Positions 2,703 through 29,614 of a DNA stretch of 64,000 nucleotides are shown piece after piece. The notes under the pieces were generated by a model. That model was not told the DNA's origin. It did no database searches and saw nothing but the letters and a program-made list of their open reading frames with translations. Source of the stretch: Candidatus Dojkabacteria bacterium (GTDB lineage Bacteria > Patescibacteriota > Dojkabacteria > SC72 > JAFGCJ01); the NCBI GenBank assembly GCA_016932785.1, contig JAFGCJ010000002.1:81777-145776 (forward strand), given 5' to 3'. The translations under genes were made by a program, and so were the position numbers. Numbering within the stretch: position 1 is the first letter of the stretch; each line of letters starts with the position of its first letter.

Positions 2703-3356
2703 ATGACAAAGAAGGACAGAGCTGCAAAAATATATGGTGTATTGAGGCGTGAATATAAGGATGCATGTTGTACTCTATTATTTGACAGTCCTCAGCAATT
2801 TCTTTTTGCTAACATTCTTTCCGCTCAGTGTACGGACGATGTGGCCAGTAGGGTTTCTATTGCTTTAATGAAGAAATTTGGTGGTGCTGAAGGTATCGCC
2901 AAGGCTAGTCTTTCAAGTATTTCTGAGGTGATAAGACCAGCAGGTTTCTATAATGTCAAATCAAGATATATTAAAAAAACCGCAAAACTTCTGGTTGATG
3001 AGTTTAACGGTGAACTGCCAAATAATCTTGATGATCTCAAAAAATTTTCCGGTATCGCAAGAAAAACCGGTCTGGTAATTCTGGGTGAGGTATTTAATAA
3101 GGTTGAAGGTATTGTTATTGATACTCATAATATTCGTCTTGCCAAAAGGTTGGGTTTGACTAAGCACGAATCGGCAGAAAAAATAGAAAAAGACTTAATG
3201 AAACTACTACCCAGAACTAAGTGGCGGATGTGGTCGCATTTGATGGTTTTTCATGGTAGGAAAATTTGTATTGCCAGATCTCCAAAATGTCAGGAATGCT
3301 TGATTTGTGAGTATTGTGACTTTGGCTGTATTAACAATAAATGTTTAACTTCTTGA
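2703..3356 (+). CDS. nth: Endonuclease III (HhH-GPD DNA glycosylase with 4Fe-4S cluster)
   Basis: 217 aa with a helix-hairpin-helix region (LKKFSGIARKTGLVILG) and a C-terminal C-x6-C-x2-C-x5-C cluster (CIARSPKCQECLICEYC). Confidence 0.9.
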   Translation: MTKKDRAAKIYGVLRREYKDACCTLLFDSPQQFLFANILSAQCTDDVASRVSIALMKKFGGAEGIAKASLSSISEVIRPAGFYNVKSRYIKKTAKLLVDEFNGELPNNLDDLKKFSGIARKTGLVILGEVFNKVEGIVIDTHNIRLAKRLGLTKHESAEKIEKDLMKLLPRTKWRMWSHLMVFHGRKICIARSPKCQECLICEYCDFGCINNKCLTS

Positions 3357-3388
3357 CATCCTCTTCCTATAATAATAAAATGAAAGAG

Positions 3389-3404
3389 TTCGGTTAATAT
3401 TCGG
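3389..3404 (+). promoter_or_regulatory. Candidate LexA operator (direct repeat TTCGG-N6-TTCGG) in the lexA promoter
   Basis: TTCGGTTAATATTCGG lies between a TATAAT (3368-3373) and the lexA ATG (3429). It is 14/16 identical to TTCGGTTTTTATTCGG upstream of umuD (16261-16276, minus strand). Confidence 0.45.
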
Positions 3405-3428
3405 GTGGTAATTTTAGCTTATATACTT

Positions 3429-4079
3429 ATGTCCTTCGAGCCGATTACGCATACTATTTATAATGATACTCCGGTTCTATATCCGAAACAGCGCAAGGTG
3501 CTTAACTATATTGAGAAATATATTTCTGATCATGGTTTTGCCCCTACTCTTACCGAGATTAAGGATTATTTGGGAGTTAAAGCTCTATCAACTGTACATG
3601 AGCACCTGATAAAACTTGAGGAGAAAGGCTATCTTGAGAGAGATGATGATAAGAGAAGCATCCGGTTAAAAATAAAGAAAGGGATGTTTGCGGGCTCGTT
3701 AATAGATGTTCCTCTTGTAGGCATGATTGCTGCTGGTGAGCCAATAGACGCTATAGAGGAGCCTGAACAGATAGGAGTTCCCCTTCCAGCAAATCTTGTT
3801 GGCAATAAGAAAGTTTTTTGTCTAAAGGTTAGAGGTGATAGTATGCTTGAGAGTTTAATAGCCGATGGAGATATTGTTGTTTGTGAGAAAGTAGATTTCG
3901 TACAAGATGGTGACACGGTGGTAGCTCTTCTTGAAGATAATACTGCCACCTTAAAGAAGTTCTACCGTGAGAGGAACTGTATCCGTTTGCAACCGGCGAA
4001 TCCCAGCTACAAGCCACTTATGGTTAAGAATGTAACCATTCAAGGGCGTGTAATTGCTATTTACAGGAAATATGGGTGA
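3429..4079 (+). CDS. lexA: LexA repressor (S24 self-cleaving)
   Basis: N-terminal wHTH (LTEIKDYLGVKALSTVHEHLIKLEEKGYLER), Ala-Gly cleavage site (MIAAGEP), catalytic RGDSM and ATLKKF (Ser/Lys dyad). The ORF is open from GTG 3405; ATG 3429 is preferred because the candidate operator occupies 3389-3404. Confidence 0.9.
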   Translation: MSFEPITHTIYNDTPVLYPKQRKVLNYIEKYISDHGFAPTLTEIKDYLGVKALSTVHEHLIKLEEKGYLERDDDKRSIRLKIKKGMFAGSLIDVPLVGMIAAGEPIDAIEEPEQIGVPLPANLVGNKKVFCLKVRGDSMLESLIADGDIVVCEKVDFVQDGDTVVALLEDNTATLKKFYRERNCIRLQPANPSYKPLMVKNVTIQGRVIAIYRKYG

Positions 4080-14533: not shown

Positions 14534-15829
14534 CTAGCATTTGGCTATTGGGATCTCATCCCATCTTGTGGTATATCTGGGGGTTCTTTTTTCCATTTTC
14601 GTTTTCCATTCCTGTTTGATTCCTTCTGCCGCTGTTTTAATTGTGGCTCTACCCCATCTGAGATTAAGTCGATCTATTGTTTCCATAATTTTTTTGTTGG
14701 TATGGTAGGTGTTTTCTGAACAGGGAGTAAGCAGATTCTTTTGGGTGGAGTCTGAGGGTATAGTTTGAGGTATCATGACCCCGGCTTTTTTGTATAGATA
14801 TCCTGGTTTGAATATTTTTTCTAGTGCTTTGTGTGAGTATTCAATTAACTTTGGGGTGTAATCTGTAGCCTCAGAGAGTGATACAGTCGCCGAGTTCGAA
14901 TATTGAGGGGAATTATTGAATCTGTTTGTCGTTATAAATACGGATATCTGTGCTGCAGAAGAATTTTGTGACCGGAGTTTCTCTGCTGCAATGGTGGTAT
15001 GTTTTGCGACGGATTCTTTTAACTCGTTAAGCGTTTCTACTGGATGACTAAATGATCTAGAACTGAGTATGCCCTTGCGTGGTTGGGTATCATCCTCTAA
15101 ATTAATGCAGGAGATCCCTCTTAGCTCCCATATTGTCCTGAGTCCTGAGATGGTCATGTGTTTTTGAATCCATTTATCTGAGGCATTTTTGAGTTGCATT
15201 GCGGTATGAATATTGTGGGATTGAAGAAACTTAGCATATTTCCTCCCTATTCCCCATATATCCGAAACACTAAGCTGATTAAGTAACTCATTGATTTTTG
15301 GGTGATCGGTAAGATCGAGTATGCCATTTAGTTCTGGAATTTTCTTGGCAAGTTTGTTGGCGGCCTTGGCGAGGGTTTTGGTGGGTGCAATTCCTATAGA
15401 AATTGGGATCCCAGTCCATTGACGAACTGTCTCTCTTATATGAGTGCAGTACCTGGTTGAGGTGTCGAGCTTCAGATTTATTAATGATAGAAATGCTTCA
15501 TCTATAGAATAAATTTCTACTTCTGGGGAAAATCTGTGTAGAATTCTCATTACTCTATTCGACATATCTCCGTACAGAGTAAAATTGGACGAGAAAACAT
15601 AAACATTGTGCTTGTCTATATGGGCCTGAGTTTTAAATAAAGGAGCACCCATCTGTATTCCAAGCTCTTTAGCTTCCTGGGAACGGGCTATTATTATTCC
15701 ATCATTATTTGAAAGAACGACAATAGGTTTATTTCTCAAATTTGGGTTAAAAACTCTTTCACATGAGGCATAAAAGTTGTTACAGTCGACGAGTGCGAAT
15801 AGCCTTGTTTTAAGCTTACTGTTATCCAT
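14534..15829 (-). CDS. umuC: Y-family translesion DNA polymerase (Pol V catalytic subunit-like)
   Basis: FALVDCNNFYASCERVFNPNLRNKPIVVLSNNDG, YSIDEAFLSL and a C-terminal little-finger region. It lies directly downstream of umuD. Confidence 0.85.
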   Translation of the reverse strand: MDNSKLKTRLFALVDCNNFYASCERVFNPNLRNKPIVVLSNNDGIIIARSQEAKELGIQMGAPLFKTQAHIDKHNVYVFSSNFTLYGDMSNRVMRILHRFSPEVEIYSIDEAFLSLINLKLDTSTRYCTHIRETVRQWTGIPISIGIAPTKTLAKAANKLAKKIPELNGILDLTDHPKINELLNQLSVSDIWGIGRKYAKFLQSHNIHTAMQLKNASDKWIQKHMTISGLRTIWELRGISCINLEDDTQPRKGILSSRSFSHPVETLNELKESVAKHTTIAAEKLRSQNSSAAQISVFITTNRFNNSPQYSNSATVSLSEATDYTPKLIEYSHKALEKIFKPGYLYKKAGVMIPQTIPSDSTQKNLLTPCSENTYHTNKKIMETIDRLNLRWGRATIKTAAEGIKQEWKTKMEKRTPRYTTRWDEIPIAKC

Positions 15830-15835
15830 TCTGCT

Positions 15836-16252
15836 CTAGTCAGTTTTATCAGTAAATGTGTGTATTACATGTACCACTACACCCCAGATTTCGACTTCTG
15901 TACTGTCGGTTATTTGGGTGGGCTTGTATTTTGGATTTTGTGGTTCAAGGAATAGTGCATTATCTTTTTTATGCAATCTCTTAACAGTAAATTCTCCGTC
16001 TACGCATGCTATTACAATAGAATTATTTTGGGGCTGAAGTGACCGATCGACTACGAGTAAATCTCCTGGATGAATACCTGCATTTATCATTGAATAACCC
16101 TCTGCTCTAACAAAGAACGTTGCGTCGGGGTGTTTTATTAATAGTTCGCTTATGTCCAGCGACTTGTCGATGAAGTCGTCTGCGGGACTGGGGAAGCCTG
16201 CGGATACCGGAGACGAATATAAATATTGTTTTAATACTATATTAGAGGTCAA
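15836..16252 (-). CDS. umuD: UmuD-like S24 self-cleaving accessory protein
   Basis: TTG start. VSA|GFPSPADDF matches the E. coli UmuD cleavage region (QCGFPSPA). GYSM provides the Ser and FTVKRL the Lys of the dyad. Confidence 0.85.
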   Translation of the reverse strand: MTSNIVLKQYLYSSPVSAGFPSPADDFIDKSLDISELLIKHPDATFFVRAEGYSMINAGIHPGDLLVVDRSLQPQNNSIVIACVDGEFTVKRLHKKDNALFLEPQNPKYKPTQITDSTEVEIWGVVVHVIHTFTDKTD

Positions 16253-16260
16253 ATCAAGAG

Positions 16261-16276
16261 CCGAATAAAAACCGAA
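16261..16276 (-). promoter_or_regulatory. Candidate LexA operator upstream of umuDC
   Basis: Minus strand reads TTCGGTTTTTATTCGG, 9 nt upstream of the umuD TTG and just downstream of an AT-rich -10-like stretch (CATTATTAAAAT). It is 14/16 identical to the lexA-promoter copy. Confidence 0.45.
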
Positions 16277-16303
16277 TATTTTAATAATGTATCATAAAAG
16301 AAT

Positions 16304-16342
16304 GCGCCTGGCAATGTGGCTCGTAAAAAGCCTGCCAGGCGC
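16304..16342 (-). terminator. Stem-loop terminator after the GNAT gene
   Basis: GCGCCTGGCA (16304-16313) and TGCCAGGCGC (16333-16342) form a perfect 10-bp GC-rich stem with a 19-nt loop. On the minus strand it is followed by ATTCTTTTAT. Confidence 0.55.
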
Positions 16343-16363
16343 TAATCTTGGTAAATTGTTCTG

Positions 16364-17029
16364 CTATATCTTTCTTTCAAGAGGTAGAAGATCAGGGATT
16401 ATCTTTGCTATCTCCTGTAGACGCTGATGTGATAATTGGACTGCTTCTGTAAACAACTCTGGTATGGGGTTCGGGTGAAAGATCATCTCTGCGTGGTAGG
16501 GATTTATCCATTGGAATATCCTGACATCCGCGAGATGACCGTCTCTGAACTCTGACTGGTGAAGTCTGCCGACTTCTACGTATCCGTTCTTAAGGAGCGC
16601 TCTTGCTGAAGGTAGATTTGGTTCGTACACAGTTGCTGATAAAGTCCACAAGTTCCAAACAGTGGACGCATAATAAAGCAAAGCAGTGTGAGTAGTTGTT
16701 GCAACTCCTTGTCCCCACCACGCTGGATCGAATATTGCTATTCCTACTGTTCCCGAGCGGGCGGAATCGTCTATCGAGTTTATACTGATGCAGCCCTTTG
16801 CGTTCTCTTCCTGTCCGGGGACAATTGCCCATACTATTTCGTTTGTGCTTTTCTCTATTTTTTGGATCCAGTCCCTTTCGAATTCCTCAGATACACCACT
16901 TATGCTTCTTAGGTAGTGACGCACCTTGTATGAGGAAAAACCCTGTGCGAGTCCCAAAACATCTGAATCTCTGAATGGCCTCATTGTTATCTTAAGGTCG
17001 TTTTCAATTGTGAATTGTGCTCCAAACAT
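16364..17029 (-). CDS. GNAT N-acetyltransferase (RimJ/RimL-like, Acetyltransf_3)
   Basis: 221 aa. LKITMRPFRDSDV...VWAIV...IGIAIFDPAWWGQGVATTTHTALLYYA...ATVYEPNLPSARALLKNGY fits the RimJ/L-type acetyl-CoA-binding core. Confidence 0.8.
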   Translation of the reverse strand: MFGAQFTIENDLKITMRPFRDSDVLGLAQGFSSYKVRHYLRSISGVSEEFERDWIQKIEKSTNEIVWAIVPGQEENAKGCISINSIDDSARSGTVGIAIFDPAWWGQGVATTTHTALLYYASTVWNLWTLSATVYEPNLPSARALLKNGYVEVGRLHQSEFRDGHLADVRIFQWINPYHAEMIFHPNPIPELFTEAVQLSHQRLQEIAKIIPDLLPLERKI

Positions 17030-29314: not shown

Positions 29315-29614
29315 GTGTCTAAAAAGAAATTATCTAAAAAAGAAGTTCAAAAGATAGCCGATTTGGCAAATATCAAACTTACTGACGAAGAGCTTGATAA
29401 ATACAGTACGGAACTTTCCTCTATTATTGAATATGTGGATAAACTTTCTGAGATAGATACGGAAAAAATCGAGATGAAGGCTCATAATGTAACTACTCAA
29501 AATGTTTTTCGCAGGGACGAACCAGGAAAGTCTCTTACCCAAGATGAGGCAATTTCAAACAGAAAATCATCTTCAGAGGGTGGGAATTTTGTTATTAAAT
29601 CTACATTGAAGTAG
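29315..29614 (+). CDS. gatC: Asp/Glu-tRNA amidotransferase subunit C
   Basis: GTG start, 99 aa. KIADLANIKLTDEELDKYSTELSSIIEYVDKL is typical of GatC. It lies directly upstream of gatA. Confidence 0.85.
   Translation: MSKKKLSKKEVQKIADLANIKLTDEELDKYSTELSSIIEYVDKLSEIDTEKIEMKAHNVTTQNVFRRDEPGKSLTQDEAISNRKSSSEGGNFVIKSTLK

What the first reader, a model, noticed from the sequence alone, without database searches (positions are those of the whole stretch)
3389..3404. Candidate non-palindromic SOS box (TTCGG-N6-TTCGG) shared by the lexA and umuDC promoters
TTCGGTTAATATTCGG (lexA, 3389-3404) and TTCGGTTTTTATTCGG (umuD, minus strand 16261-16276) are 14/16 identical. Both lie between a -10-like element and the start codon of the two canonical SOS genes in the window. 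The motif is a direct repeat ((G/A)TTCG-N6-ATTCG, 11-bp period), not the palindromic CGAAC-N4-GTTCG of Gram-positives or the CTGT-N8-ACAG of E. coli. It is most reminiscent of the alphaproteobacterial GTTC-N7-GTTC direct repeat. I am not aware of a described LexA box for this kind of lineage.
Basis: partly seen in the sequence, partly recalled or inferred. Interest (0 to 1): 0.55.

Follow-up and report, generated by a model that had tools for sequence, protein, structure and literature searches.

The report
LexA operator of a Dojkabacteria genome
The repeated TTCGG…TTCGG sequence in front of lexA and umuDC is almost certainly the DNA site where the LexA repressor binds to switch off DNA-damage genes. 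The reading is correct, but this direct-repeat type of LexA site was already described and tested for the same bacterial radiation in 2017, so it is an ordinary new instance.

Summary
Both sites exist exactly as described: TTCGG-N6-TTCGG occurs twice in 64 kb against 0.08 expected. One sits just after the -10 element of lexA, the other just after that of umuDC. These are the only canonical SOS genes I found in the window.

The window comes from a Candidatus Dojkabacteria (WS6, candidate phyla radiation) genome. In six close relatives the lexA promoter has diverged except for this repeat. A relative's umuD promoter carries it too.

Among 36 low-GC lexA loci, 25 carry the strict motif upstream of lexA, always on the coding strand: 26 hits in 20.7 kb against 4 in 211 kb elsewhere. 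Two of those four precede dinB.

The fifth base of the repeat co-varies with one residue of LexA's recognition helix: TVH(E/Q)H goes with TTCGG and TVHKH with TTCGC.

A homologue 54% identical (KKW01361.1, Parcubacteria) is listed as an experimentally validated LexA from Sánchez-Osuna et al. 2017. Its own promoter and its dinB promoter carry TTCGGTTTTTCTTCGG.

Verdict: a real LexA operator of the direct-repeat type already described for Patescibacteria, here in Dojkabacteria. Interest is low to moderate.

The parts
3389..3404 (+). LexA operator of the lexA promoter: TTCGGTTAATATTCGG, two TTCGG units 11 bp apart (extended form GTTCGGTTAATATTCGGGT, 3388-3406)
   Evidence: Exact match. It is the top hit in the window (22.8 bits) for a weight matrix built only from other genomes' lexA promoters. 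It is conserved at the same promoter position in L093, L095, L096, L001, L002 and L004 while the flanks have diverged.
3353..3381 (+). lexA promoter: -35 TTGACA (3353-3358), 17-nt spacer, -10 TAAAAT (3376-3381)
   Evidence: Consensus scan gives 11/12 matches. The same -35/-10/operator order is seen in L093, L095 and L096. This is a sequence-consensus prediction only.
3429..4079 (+). lexA gene: 216-aa autoregulated repressor with a winged-helix DNA-binding domain and an S24 self-cleaving domain. Recognition helix is S54-T-V-H-E58-H-L60. Cleavage and catalytic residues are A102-G103, S138 and K176.
   Evidence: Pfam LexA_DNA_bind 1e-16 and Peptidase_S24 1.3e-30. It is 100% identical to an NCBI Candidatus Dojkabacteria LexA. 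The named residues are invariant in a 35-sequence alignment. The best match among solved structures is Thermotoga LexA 3k2z, E 3.5e-31.
16261..16276 (-). LexA operator of the umuDC promoter: TTCGGTTTTTATTCGG (preceded by A, followed by CTC)
   Evidence: Exact match. The orthologous umuD promoter in L084 has TACAAT-agaat-ATTCGGTTAATCTTCGG-ctcccacaa-ATG with otherwise unrelated flanks. The identical 16-mer precedes the lexA operon in L005, L006 and L007.
16278..16314 (-). Candidate umuDC promoter elements: -35 TTGCCA (16314-16309), TG-extended -10 TACATT (16291-16286), and an alternative -10 TAAAAT (16283-16278)
   Evidence: Consensus scan gives 9/12 matches with TG. The TAAAAT was read directly. 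This prediction is weaker than the one for lexA.
15836..16252 (-). umuD: 138 aa, TTG start, S24 peptidase without a DNA-binding domain, with the SAG-FPSPADD cleavage region
   Evidence: Pfam Peptidase_S24 4.6e-31. NCBI names the identical protein 'translesion error-prone DNA polymerase V autoproteolytic subunit'.
14534..15829 (-). umuC: 431-aa Y-family translesion polymerase, in an operon with umuD (6-nt gap)
   Evidence: Pfam IMS 3.6e-41, IMS_C, IMS_HHH and DUF4113.

Best explanation
The two TTCGG-N6-TTCGG elements are the operators of the LexA repressor encoded at 3429-4079.

Proposed mechanism:
- In undamaged cells a LexA dimer places its two winged-helix domains head-to-tail on the two TTCGG units. 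The units are 11 bp apart, about one helical turn, so both lie on the same face of the DNA.
- In this genome the operator lies immediately downstream of the -10 element, over the transcription start. Bound LexA therefore blocks RNA polymerase at the lexA promoter (autoregulation) and at the umuDC promoter (error-prone polymerase V).
- After DNA damage, RecA filaments trigger LexA self-cleavage at A102-G103, catalysed by S138 and K176. The operators are vacated and both operons are expressed. UmuD is then itself cleaved to its active form.

What is shown here: the motif, its positions, its conservation, its restriction to SOS-type promoters, its co-variation with the LexA recognition helix, and the intact catalytic residues.

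What is inferred: physical binding in this organism, the head-to-tail binding geometry, and induction by DNA damage.
For: 1. Specificity in the window. There are two exact hits against 0.08 expected. Both are in the promoters of lexA and umuDC, the only canonical SOS genes found.

2. Unbiased motif search. Enumerating all 4-mer dyads in lexA upstream regions puts CGAA-N7-CGAA (the reverse complement of TTCG-N7-TTCG) on top. It occurs in 12/22 low-GC and 23/38 high-GC regions, while shuffled sets reach at most 7 and 5.

3. Enrichment. Of 36 low-GC lexA loci, 25 have the strict motif within 600 bp upstream, all on the coding strand. That is 26 hits in 20.7 kb against 4 in 210.7 kb elsewhere. Two of the 4 precede dinB and one precedes an upstream gene of the lexA operon.

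4. Phylogenetic footprint. In L093, L095, L096, L001, L002 and L004 only the repeat and the -35/-10 elements are conserved. In each 20-kb locus around lexA it is the only TTCG-N7-TTCG.

5. Other SOS genes. The umuD orthologue in L084 carries the motif, as does dinB in L088 and L092.

6. It acts on DNA, not RNA. In most lineages the repeat fills the -35/-10 spacer, as in TTGACA-C-TTCGGTTTTTCTTCGG-C-TATACT, which is not transcribed.

7. Protein-DNA co-variation. Helix TVH(E/Q)H goes with TTCGG in all about 28 loci, including contigs of 54-71% GC. TVHKH goes with TTCGC in all about 45 loci. STAHFHV goes with TTCGATTTACTTTCG on the opposite strand. STV(S/N)HYM goes with TTCTAG-N5-TTCTAG.

8. Experimental link. 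P0104 is KKW01361.1, the LexA of Parcubacteria group bacterium GW2011_GWA2_48_9. It is listed as experimentally validated, source PMID 28618189. It is 54% identical to the window LexA, and its recognition helix differs at one position, ATVHEHL against STVHEHL. Its promoter and its dinB promoter carry TTCGGTTTTTCTTCGG. PMC7739468 cites that paper among cases of LexA recognising a direct repeat.

9. Host specificity. umuD homologues of similar identity in other lineages (L099, L101 Caldisericia, L086 WWE3, L085) lack the repeat, and L099, L101 and L085 carry palindromes instead (none was evident in L086). The operator therefore tracks the host LexA, not the umuDC cassette.
Against: - No binding or expression data exist for this organism.
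- I could not read the 2017 paper, so I have not verified that its published consensus is literally TTCGG-N6-TTCGG.
- The umuD site scores only 12.9 bits with the matrix built from distant relatives, which is within the range of the top scores of shuffled windows (8-17.5). Its support comes from the exact core match and from the L084 orthologue.
- recA, uvrA and other classic SOS genes are not in the window, so the regulon cannot be delimited.
- The co-variation rests largely on two big clades, so it represents few independent events.
Confidence: 0.9

Rival explanations
1. The repeat is the operator of a different transcription factor, not LexA, that happens to co-regulate lexA and the translesion polymerases.
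For: No direct binding data exist for this genome. Many related lexA promoters also carry a second conserved element, TTATCCACA, which shows that other factors probably act there.
Against: The motif follows the lexA gene itself across more than 60 loci from at least two deep clades. Its variants co-vary with the LexA recognition helix. The homologous LexA whose promoter carries the same motif is listed as experimentally validated. Autoregulation is a general property of LexA (established knowledge, PMC3323433).
Confidence: 0.05
2. Chance resemblance: two AT-rich promoter regions happen to share a short repeat that has no function.
For: The motif has only 10 specified bases. The umuD site scores within the range of shuffled windows with a distant-relative matrix.
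Against: There are 2 hits against 0.08 expected, and 0 of 100 shuffles reach 2. The repeat is conserved in orthologous lexA and umuD promoters whose flanks are randomised. Upstream of lexA it is about 66-fold enriched.
Confidence: 0.02
3. An RNA-level element in the 5' leader, for example a binding site for a translational regulator. In this window both copies lie downstream of the -10 element and would be transcribed.
For: Both copies sit between the -10 element and the start codon in the window and in its closest relatives.
Against: In most other lineages the same repeat lies in the non-transcribed -35/-10 spacer. The repeat has no self-complementarity.
Confidence: 0.02
4. An iteron-like repeat belonging to a replication or mobile-element function.
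For: Some viral contigs carry arrays with an 11-bp period built from GTTCGGTTGNT units.
Against: The window has only two units per site. They lie in chromosomal promoters of syntenic housekeeping context. No array and no replication genes are nearby.
Confidence: 0.01

Closest known systems
Patescibacteria LexA-binding motif (Sánchez-Osuna, Barbé & Erill 2017, Environ Microbiol 19:3465, PMID 28618189)
   Same: Both belong to the candidate phyla radiation and to the same LexA family. The window LexA is 54% identical to the validated KKW01361.1, and the recognition helix differs at one position (S/A). That protein's own promoter and its dinB promoter carry TTCGGTTTTTCTTCGG. The motif is cited as a direct repeat. 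The genes controlled are lexA plus translesion polymerases.
   Different: The window is from Candidatus Dojkabacteria (WS6). NCBI taxonomy places this lineage outside its 'Patescibacteria group', so it may not have been covered in 2017. In the Dojkabacteria clade the operator lies downstream of the -10 element instead of inside the -35/-10 spacer, and the clade lacks the adjacent TTATCCACA element. I could not read the paper's consensus.
Alphaproteobacterial (and Acidobacterium capsulatum) LexA box GTTC-N7-GTTC
   Same: Both are direct repeats with the same 11-bp period and a shared TTC core (PMC3323433; PMC8565304). The window reads GTTC-N7-ATTC at lexA and ATTC-N7-ATTC at umuD.
   Different: The conserved unit here is TTCGG, where the two bases after TTC are conserved and the base before is not. 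Whether the window LexA belongs to the alphaproteobacterial LexA clade was not tested. An unlabelled high-GC soil clade uses TTCGCC-N5-TTCGCC with a K in the helix.
Gram-positive LexA (DinR) box CGAAC-N4-GTTCG
   Same: The half-site GTTCG/TTCG is the same. From memory, the recognition helix STVHEHL resembles B. subtilis STVHGHL; I did not verify this here.
   Different: The Gram-positive box is an inverted repeat with 4-bp spacing. No GAAC-N4-GTTC occurs in the lexA promoter of the window (read directly) or in the promoters of its relatives. Here one half-site is flipped into a tandem arrangement.
E. coli SOS box CTGT-N8-ACAG
   Same: The function and logic are the same: autoregulated lexA and repression of umuDC.
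   Different: The sequence is unrelated and palindromic. No CTGT-N8-ACAG occurs at either promoter (read directly).

Membership tests
LexA operator (SOS box), general | Present in the promoter of lexA itself (autoregulation), overlapping or abutting the RNA polymerase contact elements | tested here: met
   The site at 3389-3404 starts 8 nt after the -10 element at 3376-3381.
LexA operator (SOS box), general | Also present upstream of other DNA-damage genes | tested here: met
   Present at umuDC in the window and in L084, and at dinB in L088 and L092. recA and uvrA are not in the window, so they were not tested.
LexA operator (SOS box), general | Conserved in orthologous promoters against diverged flanks | tested here: met
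   Of 36 low-GC loci, 25 carry the strict motif.
LexA operator (SOS box), general | The cognate LexA has a DNA-binding domain plus an S24 domain with the Ala-Gly site and the Ser/Lys dyad | tested here: met
   Pfam domains. A102, G103, S138 and K176 are invariant.
LexA operator (SOS box), general | Specific physical binding by LexA, and derepression after DNA damage | not testable with these tools
   There is only an indirect link. The homologue KKW01361.1 is listed as experimentally validated.
Patescibacteria direct-repeat LexA motif (PMID 28618189) | The same motif as in the promoter of the validated Patescibacteria LexA | tested here: met
   The L088 lexA promoter and dinB promoter carry TTCGGTTTTTCTTCGG; the window carries TTCGGTT(AA/TT)TATTCGG.
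Patescibacteria direct-repeat LexA motif (PMID 28618189) | Matches the consensus published in the paper | not tested
   The paper is not held in the library. The only available statement is that it is a direct-repeat case.
Patescibacteria direct-repeat LexA motif (PMID 28618189) | The LexA protein belongs to the same family, with the same recognition helix | tested here: met
   54% identity, E 6e-77. The helices are LSTVHEHL and LATVHEHL. The helix-motif co-variation is shown.
Alphaproteobacterial GTTC-N7-GTTC box | Direct repeat with an 11-bp period | tested here: met
Alphaproteobacterial GTTC-N7-GTTC box | GTTC tetranucleotide in both units | tested here: not met
   The lexA site reads GTTC/ATTC and the umuD site ATTC/ATTC. 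The conserved unit is TTCGG.
Gram-positive CGAAC-N4-GTTCG box | Inverted repeat with a 4-bp spacer | tested here: not met
   No GAAC-N4-GTTC occurs in lexA upstream regions of the relatives (only L057, an unrelated 66% GC contig, has one). None occurs in the window promoter.

The most novel reading that the evidence does not exclude
The Dojkabacteria (WS6) branch was not covered by the 2017 Patescibacteria study and shows a derived arrangement with three features.

1. The operator has moved from the -35/-10 spacer to just downstream of the -10 element.
2. The accompanying DnaA-box-like element has been lost.
3. A horizontally acquired GNAT-umuDC cassette, which is absent from the syntenic relative L093, gained a host-type operator de novo. 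This could leave a minimal SOS regulon of two operons (lexA and polymerase V).

In addition, the E/Q versus K residue at helix position 58 would be a single-residue determinant of the fifth operator base (G versus C).
Probability: 0.35. Interest if true: 0.35.

Novelty: new member of a known kind. Interest (0 to 1): 0.22.

Why it matters
It confirms that these uncultivated, reduced-genome bacteria keep a conventional LexA-controlled damage response centred on error-prone polymerases. It also extends the known direct-repeat LexA operator to the Dojkabacteria.

The practical gain is annotation. The TTCGG-N6-TTCGG matrix can be used to map SOS regulons in candidate-phyla genomes.

The observed match between one helix residue and one operator base (E/Q with G, K with C) gives a simple, testable recognition rule.

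As a discovery it is modest, because the motif class, its direct-repeat nature and its experimental validation are already published.

Tried and rejected
- Mismatch search. Searching the window with up to 3 mismatches gave 6 hits against 5.8 expected. The four extra hits are at chance level, and the best of them (21693, 2 mismatches) lies inside an ORF.

- Weight-matrix scan. The next-best hits after lexA and umuD (61046, 52524, 10129) lie inside coding regions of unrelated or unannotated ORFs, one of them a glycosyltransferase. I rejected them as operators.

- Metagenome scan with a LexA alignment. It returned mostly 41-49% identical LexA genes from mixed lineages rather than close relatives. 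This turned out to be useful as a broad comparison set. A few contigs of 26-28% GC proved to carry Gram-positive-type palindromes and are probably not from the radiation.

- Literature. The 2017 Patescibacteria paper and the 2016 Verrucomicrobia paper are not held. No held paper quotes the Patescibacteria consensus. I relied on Table S2 of PMC8565304 and one sentence in PMC7739468.

- Viral-contig scan with GTTCGGTTNNTNTTCGG. Most contigs had a single match, as expected by chance in a collection of that size. The three multi-copy cases I read (L106, L154, L157) are iteron-like arrays, not promoters, so the scan is uninformative for LexA.

- recA. I could not retrieve recA from the source genome or its relatives with the remaining tools, so recA regulation is untested.

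Full report
**1. Observation**

They are 14/16 identical. TTCGG-N6-TTCGG matches nowhere else in the 64 kb. Chance expectation is 0.08, and none of 100 shuffles reached two matches.

- 3429-4079 encodes LexA (LexA_DNA_bind + Peptidase_S24).
- 15836-16252 (-) encodes UmuD (S24 domain only).
- 14534-15829 (-) encodes UmuC (IMS, IMS_C, DUF4113).

The lexA promoter is near-consensus: TTGACA at 3353-3358, a 17-nt spacer and TAAAAT at 3376-3381. The repeat starts 8 nt after the -10 element, so it lies over the expected transcription start.

At umuD the repeat follows a TAAAAT (16283-16278), or a TG-extended TACATT at 16291-16286. It ends 8 nt before the TTG start that NCBI also uses (P0121, 138 aa).

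The other ORFs of the window that I scanned with Pfam, 20 in all including the largest, encode housekeeping or envelope functions or have no Pfam match: IleRS, PPDK, glycosyltransferases, Lgt, Sua5/TsaE and others. An endonuclease III-like gene lies just upstream of lexA. Apart from it, I saw no other DNA-repair gene.

**2. Lineage**

The LexA and UmuD proteins are 100% identical to NCBI proteins of a Candidatus Dojkabacteria bacterium, on a 598,548-bp contig. The nearest genome hits are a Dojkabacteria MAG and a MAG labelled Saccharibacteria. Dojkabacteria (WS6) belongs to the candidate phyla radiation (my own knowledge). NCBI taxonomy lists it beside, not inside, its 'Patescibacteria group'.

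**3. Comparative evidence that the repeat is functional**

*Close relatives.* In L093, L095, L096, L001, L002 and L004 (LexA 68-84% identical) the lexA upstream region has diverged beyond recognition. The exceptions are the -35 and -10 elements and TTCGGTTAATATTCGG-like repeats at the same position after the -10. L002 and L004 carry a second copy over the -35 or in the spacer. In each 20-kb locus it is the only TTCG-N7-TTCG.

*Unbiased dyad search.* Enumerating all 4-mer/gap/4-mer dyads in 60 lexA upstream regions ranks CGAA-N7-CGAA (that is, TTCG-N7-TTCG) first. This holds in both the low-GC and the high-GC subsets and is far above shuffled controls.

*Enrichment.* In 36 low-GC lexA loci, 25 have the strict motif within 600 bp upstream of lexA, always on the coding strand. 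That is 26 hits in 20.7 kb against 4 in 210.7 kb elsewhere. Of those 4, two sit directly in front of dinB (L088, L092) and one sits in front of an upstream gene of the lexA operon.

*umuD.* The relative L084 has the same GNAT-umuD-umuC arrangement, and its contig carries the 84%-identical LexA. Its umuD promoter reads TACAAT-agaat-ATTCGGTTAATCTTCGG-ctcccacaa-ATG, with otherwise unrelated sequence.

*Controls in other lineages.* UmuD homologues of equal or higher identity from other lineages lack the repeat. These are L099, L101 (Caldisericia), L086 (WWE3), and L085, which has a different LexA only 34% identical. L099, L101 and L085 carry palindromes instead; I saw no clear motif in L086. The operator therefore matches the host's LexA rather than travelling with the cassette. 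The cassette is absent from the syntenic relative L093, which is consistent with horizontal acquisition.

**4. Evidence that LexA is the binding protein**

In most lineages the repeat fills the spacer between -35 and -10. Examples are TTGACA-C-TTCGGTTTTTCTTCGG-C-TATACT in L088 and TTGAC-TTCGCCTTATATTCGCC-TACAAT in the soil clade. That is a DNA-level operator position, not an RNA element.

The repeat unit co-varies with LexA's recognition helix:
- Helix (S/A)T(V/I)H(E/Q)H pairs with TTCGG in every case. This includes contigs of 54-71% GC, so it is not a base-composition effect.
- Helix ATVHKH pairs with TTCGC(C) in every case.
- Helix STAHFHV pairs with TTCGATTTACTTTCG on the opposite strand.
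- Helix STV(S/N)HYM pairs with TTCTAG-N5-TTCTAG.
- The LexA of L085, with an unrelated helix, has a palindrome.

The catalytic residues (A102-G103, S138, K176) are invariant, so the usual RecA-triggered inactivation is expected.

**5. Link to published work**

P0104 is 54% identical to the window LexA. The two recognition helices differ at one position, STVHEHL in the window and ATVHEHL in P0104. P0104 is KKW01361.1 of Parcubacteria group bacterium GW2011_GWA2_48_9.

That accession, together with a Collierbacteria LexA, appears in Table S2 of PMC8565304, 'reference experimentally-validated LexA proteins', with source PMID 28618189. PMC7739468 cites that 2017 paper among the cases in which LexA evolved recognition of a direct repeat.

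The validated protein's own promoter and its dinB promoter carry TTCGGTTTTTCTTCGG. I could not read the 2017 paper itself. The literal published consensus is therefore unverified, but the chain of evidence leaves little room for a different motif.

**6. Mechanism**

Shown here:
- the operator sequence, position and orientation
- conservation across orthologous promoters
- restriction to lexA, umuDC and dinB promoters
- helix-operator co-variation
- an intact self-cleavage apparatus in LexA, and a UmuD with an Ala-Gly cleavage region

Inferred:
- A LexA dimer binds the two units head-to-tail on one face of the DNA, given the 11-bp period. This requires one DNA-binding domain to swivel on the flexible linker, as must also happen for the alphaproteobacterial GTTC-N7-GTTC box (PMC3323433).
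- Bound LexA occludes the transcription start.
- RecA-stimulated cleavage relieves repression.

**7. Comparison and novelty**

The site works like every SOS box. By sequence it is the Patescibacteria direct-repeat type. It is a relative of the alphaproteobacterial GTTC-N7-GTTC box, with the same period and TTC core. Its half-site equals the Gram-positive GTTCG, but in tandem rather than inverted arrangement. It does not meet the strict GTTC/GTTC definition, the Gram-positive palindrome or the E. coli box.

What is possibly new is limited to three points: the Dojkabacteria instance, the operator's shift to downstream of the -10 element in this clade, and the recruitment of an acquired umuDC cassette. 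I rate it a new member of a known kind, with low to moderate interest.

**8. Side observations in related loci**

These are listed separately in the report:
- a perfect DnaA-box nonamer next to the LexA operator in about 18 Patescibacteria-type lexA promoters
- LexA fused to a DNA methyltransferase domain
- variant repeat units with variant helices
- a second LexA type with a palindromic candidate operator in another Dojkabacteria MAG

Noticed in passing
L088 5893-5901 (TTATCCACA, 9 nt upstream of the -35 of lexA); also L005-L007, L016, L023, L026, L044, L047, L048, L050, L052, L061, L062, L064-L066, L072, L075, L078, L082: A perfect DnaA-box nonamer, TTATCCACA, in either orientation, lies within about 70 bp of the LexA operator in about 18 low-GC (Patescibacteria-type) lexA promoters. 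Only 7 copies occur in the remaining roughly 230 kb of those loci. It is absent from the lexA and umuD promoters of the window and of its Dojkabacteria relatives. The window has one copy, at 29434-29442, which is chance level. This suggests that DnaA or another factor co-regulates lexA in many of these bacteria.
   Followed up: partly
L023 2501-4027 (508 aa, P0274) and L074 2492-3925 (477 aa): LexA is fused in frame to a C-terminal N6/N4 DNA methyltransferase domain. Pfam finds LexA_DNA_bind + Peptidase_S24 + N6_N4_Mtase. The 508-aa protein is seen on 47 contigs, so it is not an assembly artefact. These genes keep the TTCGG-N6-TTCGG operator in their promoters.
   Followed up: partly
L085 2270-2330 (Dojkabacteria MAG WJKM01000012.1): A second type of LexA, only 34% identical to the window's and with a different recognition helix, sits in an operon with a umuD-like gene and no umuC. 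Its promoter has no TTCGG repeat. It has instead a palindrome, TAGTATAC-N3-GTATACTA, plus a further TAGTATACTA at the start codon. This is a candidate for a different LexA motif within the same candidate phylum.
   Followed up: partly
window 14534-17029 compared with L093 15848-20031: The GNAT-umuD-umuC block lies between the CarboxypepD_reg gene and the radical-SAM gene in the window and in L084. It is absent at that position from the syntenic relative L093. The UmuD of L084 is only 56% identical to the window's, although the LexA proteins are 84% identical. The nearest UmuD homologues (63-66%) come from many phyla. This suggests that the cassette was acquired or exchanged horizontally and then placed under the host's operator.
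   Followed up: partly
L016 about 2425-2470; L052 and L078 lexA promoters; L008-L060 (high-GC soil contigs): The repeat unit varies while keeping the 11-bp period and the promoter position. Variants are ATCGG-N6-ATCGG (L016), TTCTAG-N5-TTCTAG (L052, L078, helix STV(S/N)HYM) and TTCGCC-N5-TTCGCC in about 45 contigs of 55-61% GC (helix ATVHKH). Helix E/Q pairs with G and K pairs with C at the fifth base without exception in this sample.
   Followed up: partly
L006 1974-2500; L005 2160-2500; L007 about 2119: In these loci the operator, which is identical to the window's umuD site, lies 340-530 bp upstream of lexA, with an intervening ORF in the two loci I read (L005, L006). In L006 that ORF (114 aa) is followed by a GC-rich hairpin (ggccagaggccgatcggcctctggcc). 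In L005, L088 and L092 a dinB gene follows lexA.
   Followed up: no
L154 6330-6385; L157 6695-6785; L106 1435-1610 (IMG/VR viral contigs): These are arrays with an 11-bp period built from GTTCGGTTGNT-like units, with 3-5 tandem copies and some inverted copies nearby. They resemble replication iterons and share the GTTCGG core with the LexA operator. Their lineage and function are unknown.
   Followed up: no
window 16304-16342 (-): A 10-bp inverted repeat, GCGCCTGGCA…TGCCAGGCGC, followed by ATTCTTTT lies between the GNAT gene and the umuDC promoter. It is probably the terminator of the GNAT gene. Its 3' arm overlaps the candidate -35 element of umuDC.
   Followed up: no
L099 3950-3985; L101 1933-1965: The umuD promoters of other lineages carry long palindromes: TATGGTGAGTATATACTCACCATA in L099 and AGTGTACAGG…CCTGTACACT in L101 (Caldisericia). 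These are candidate LexA or UmuD-regulator operators of those lineages.
   Followed up: no
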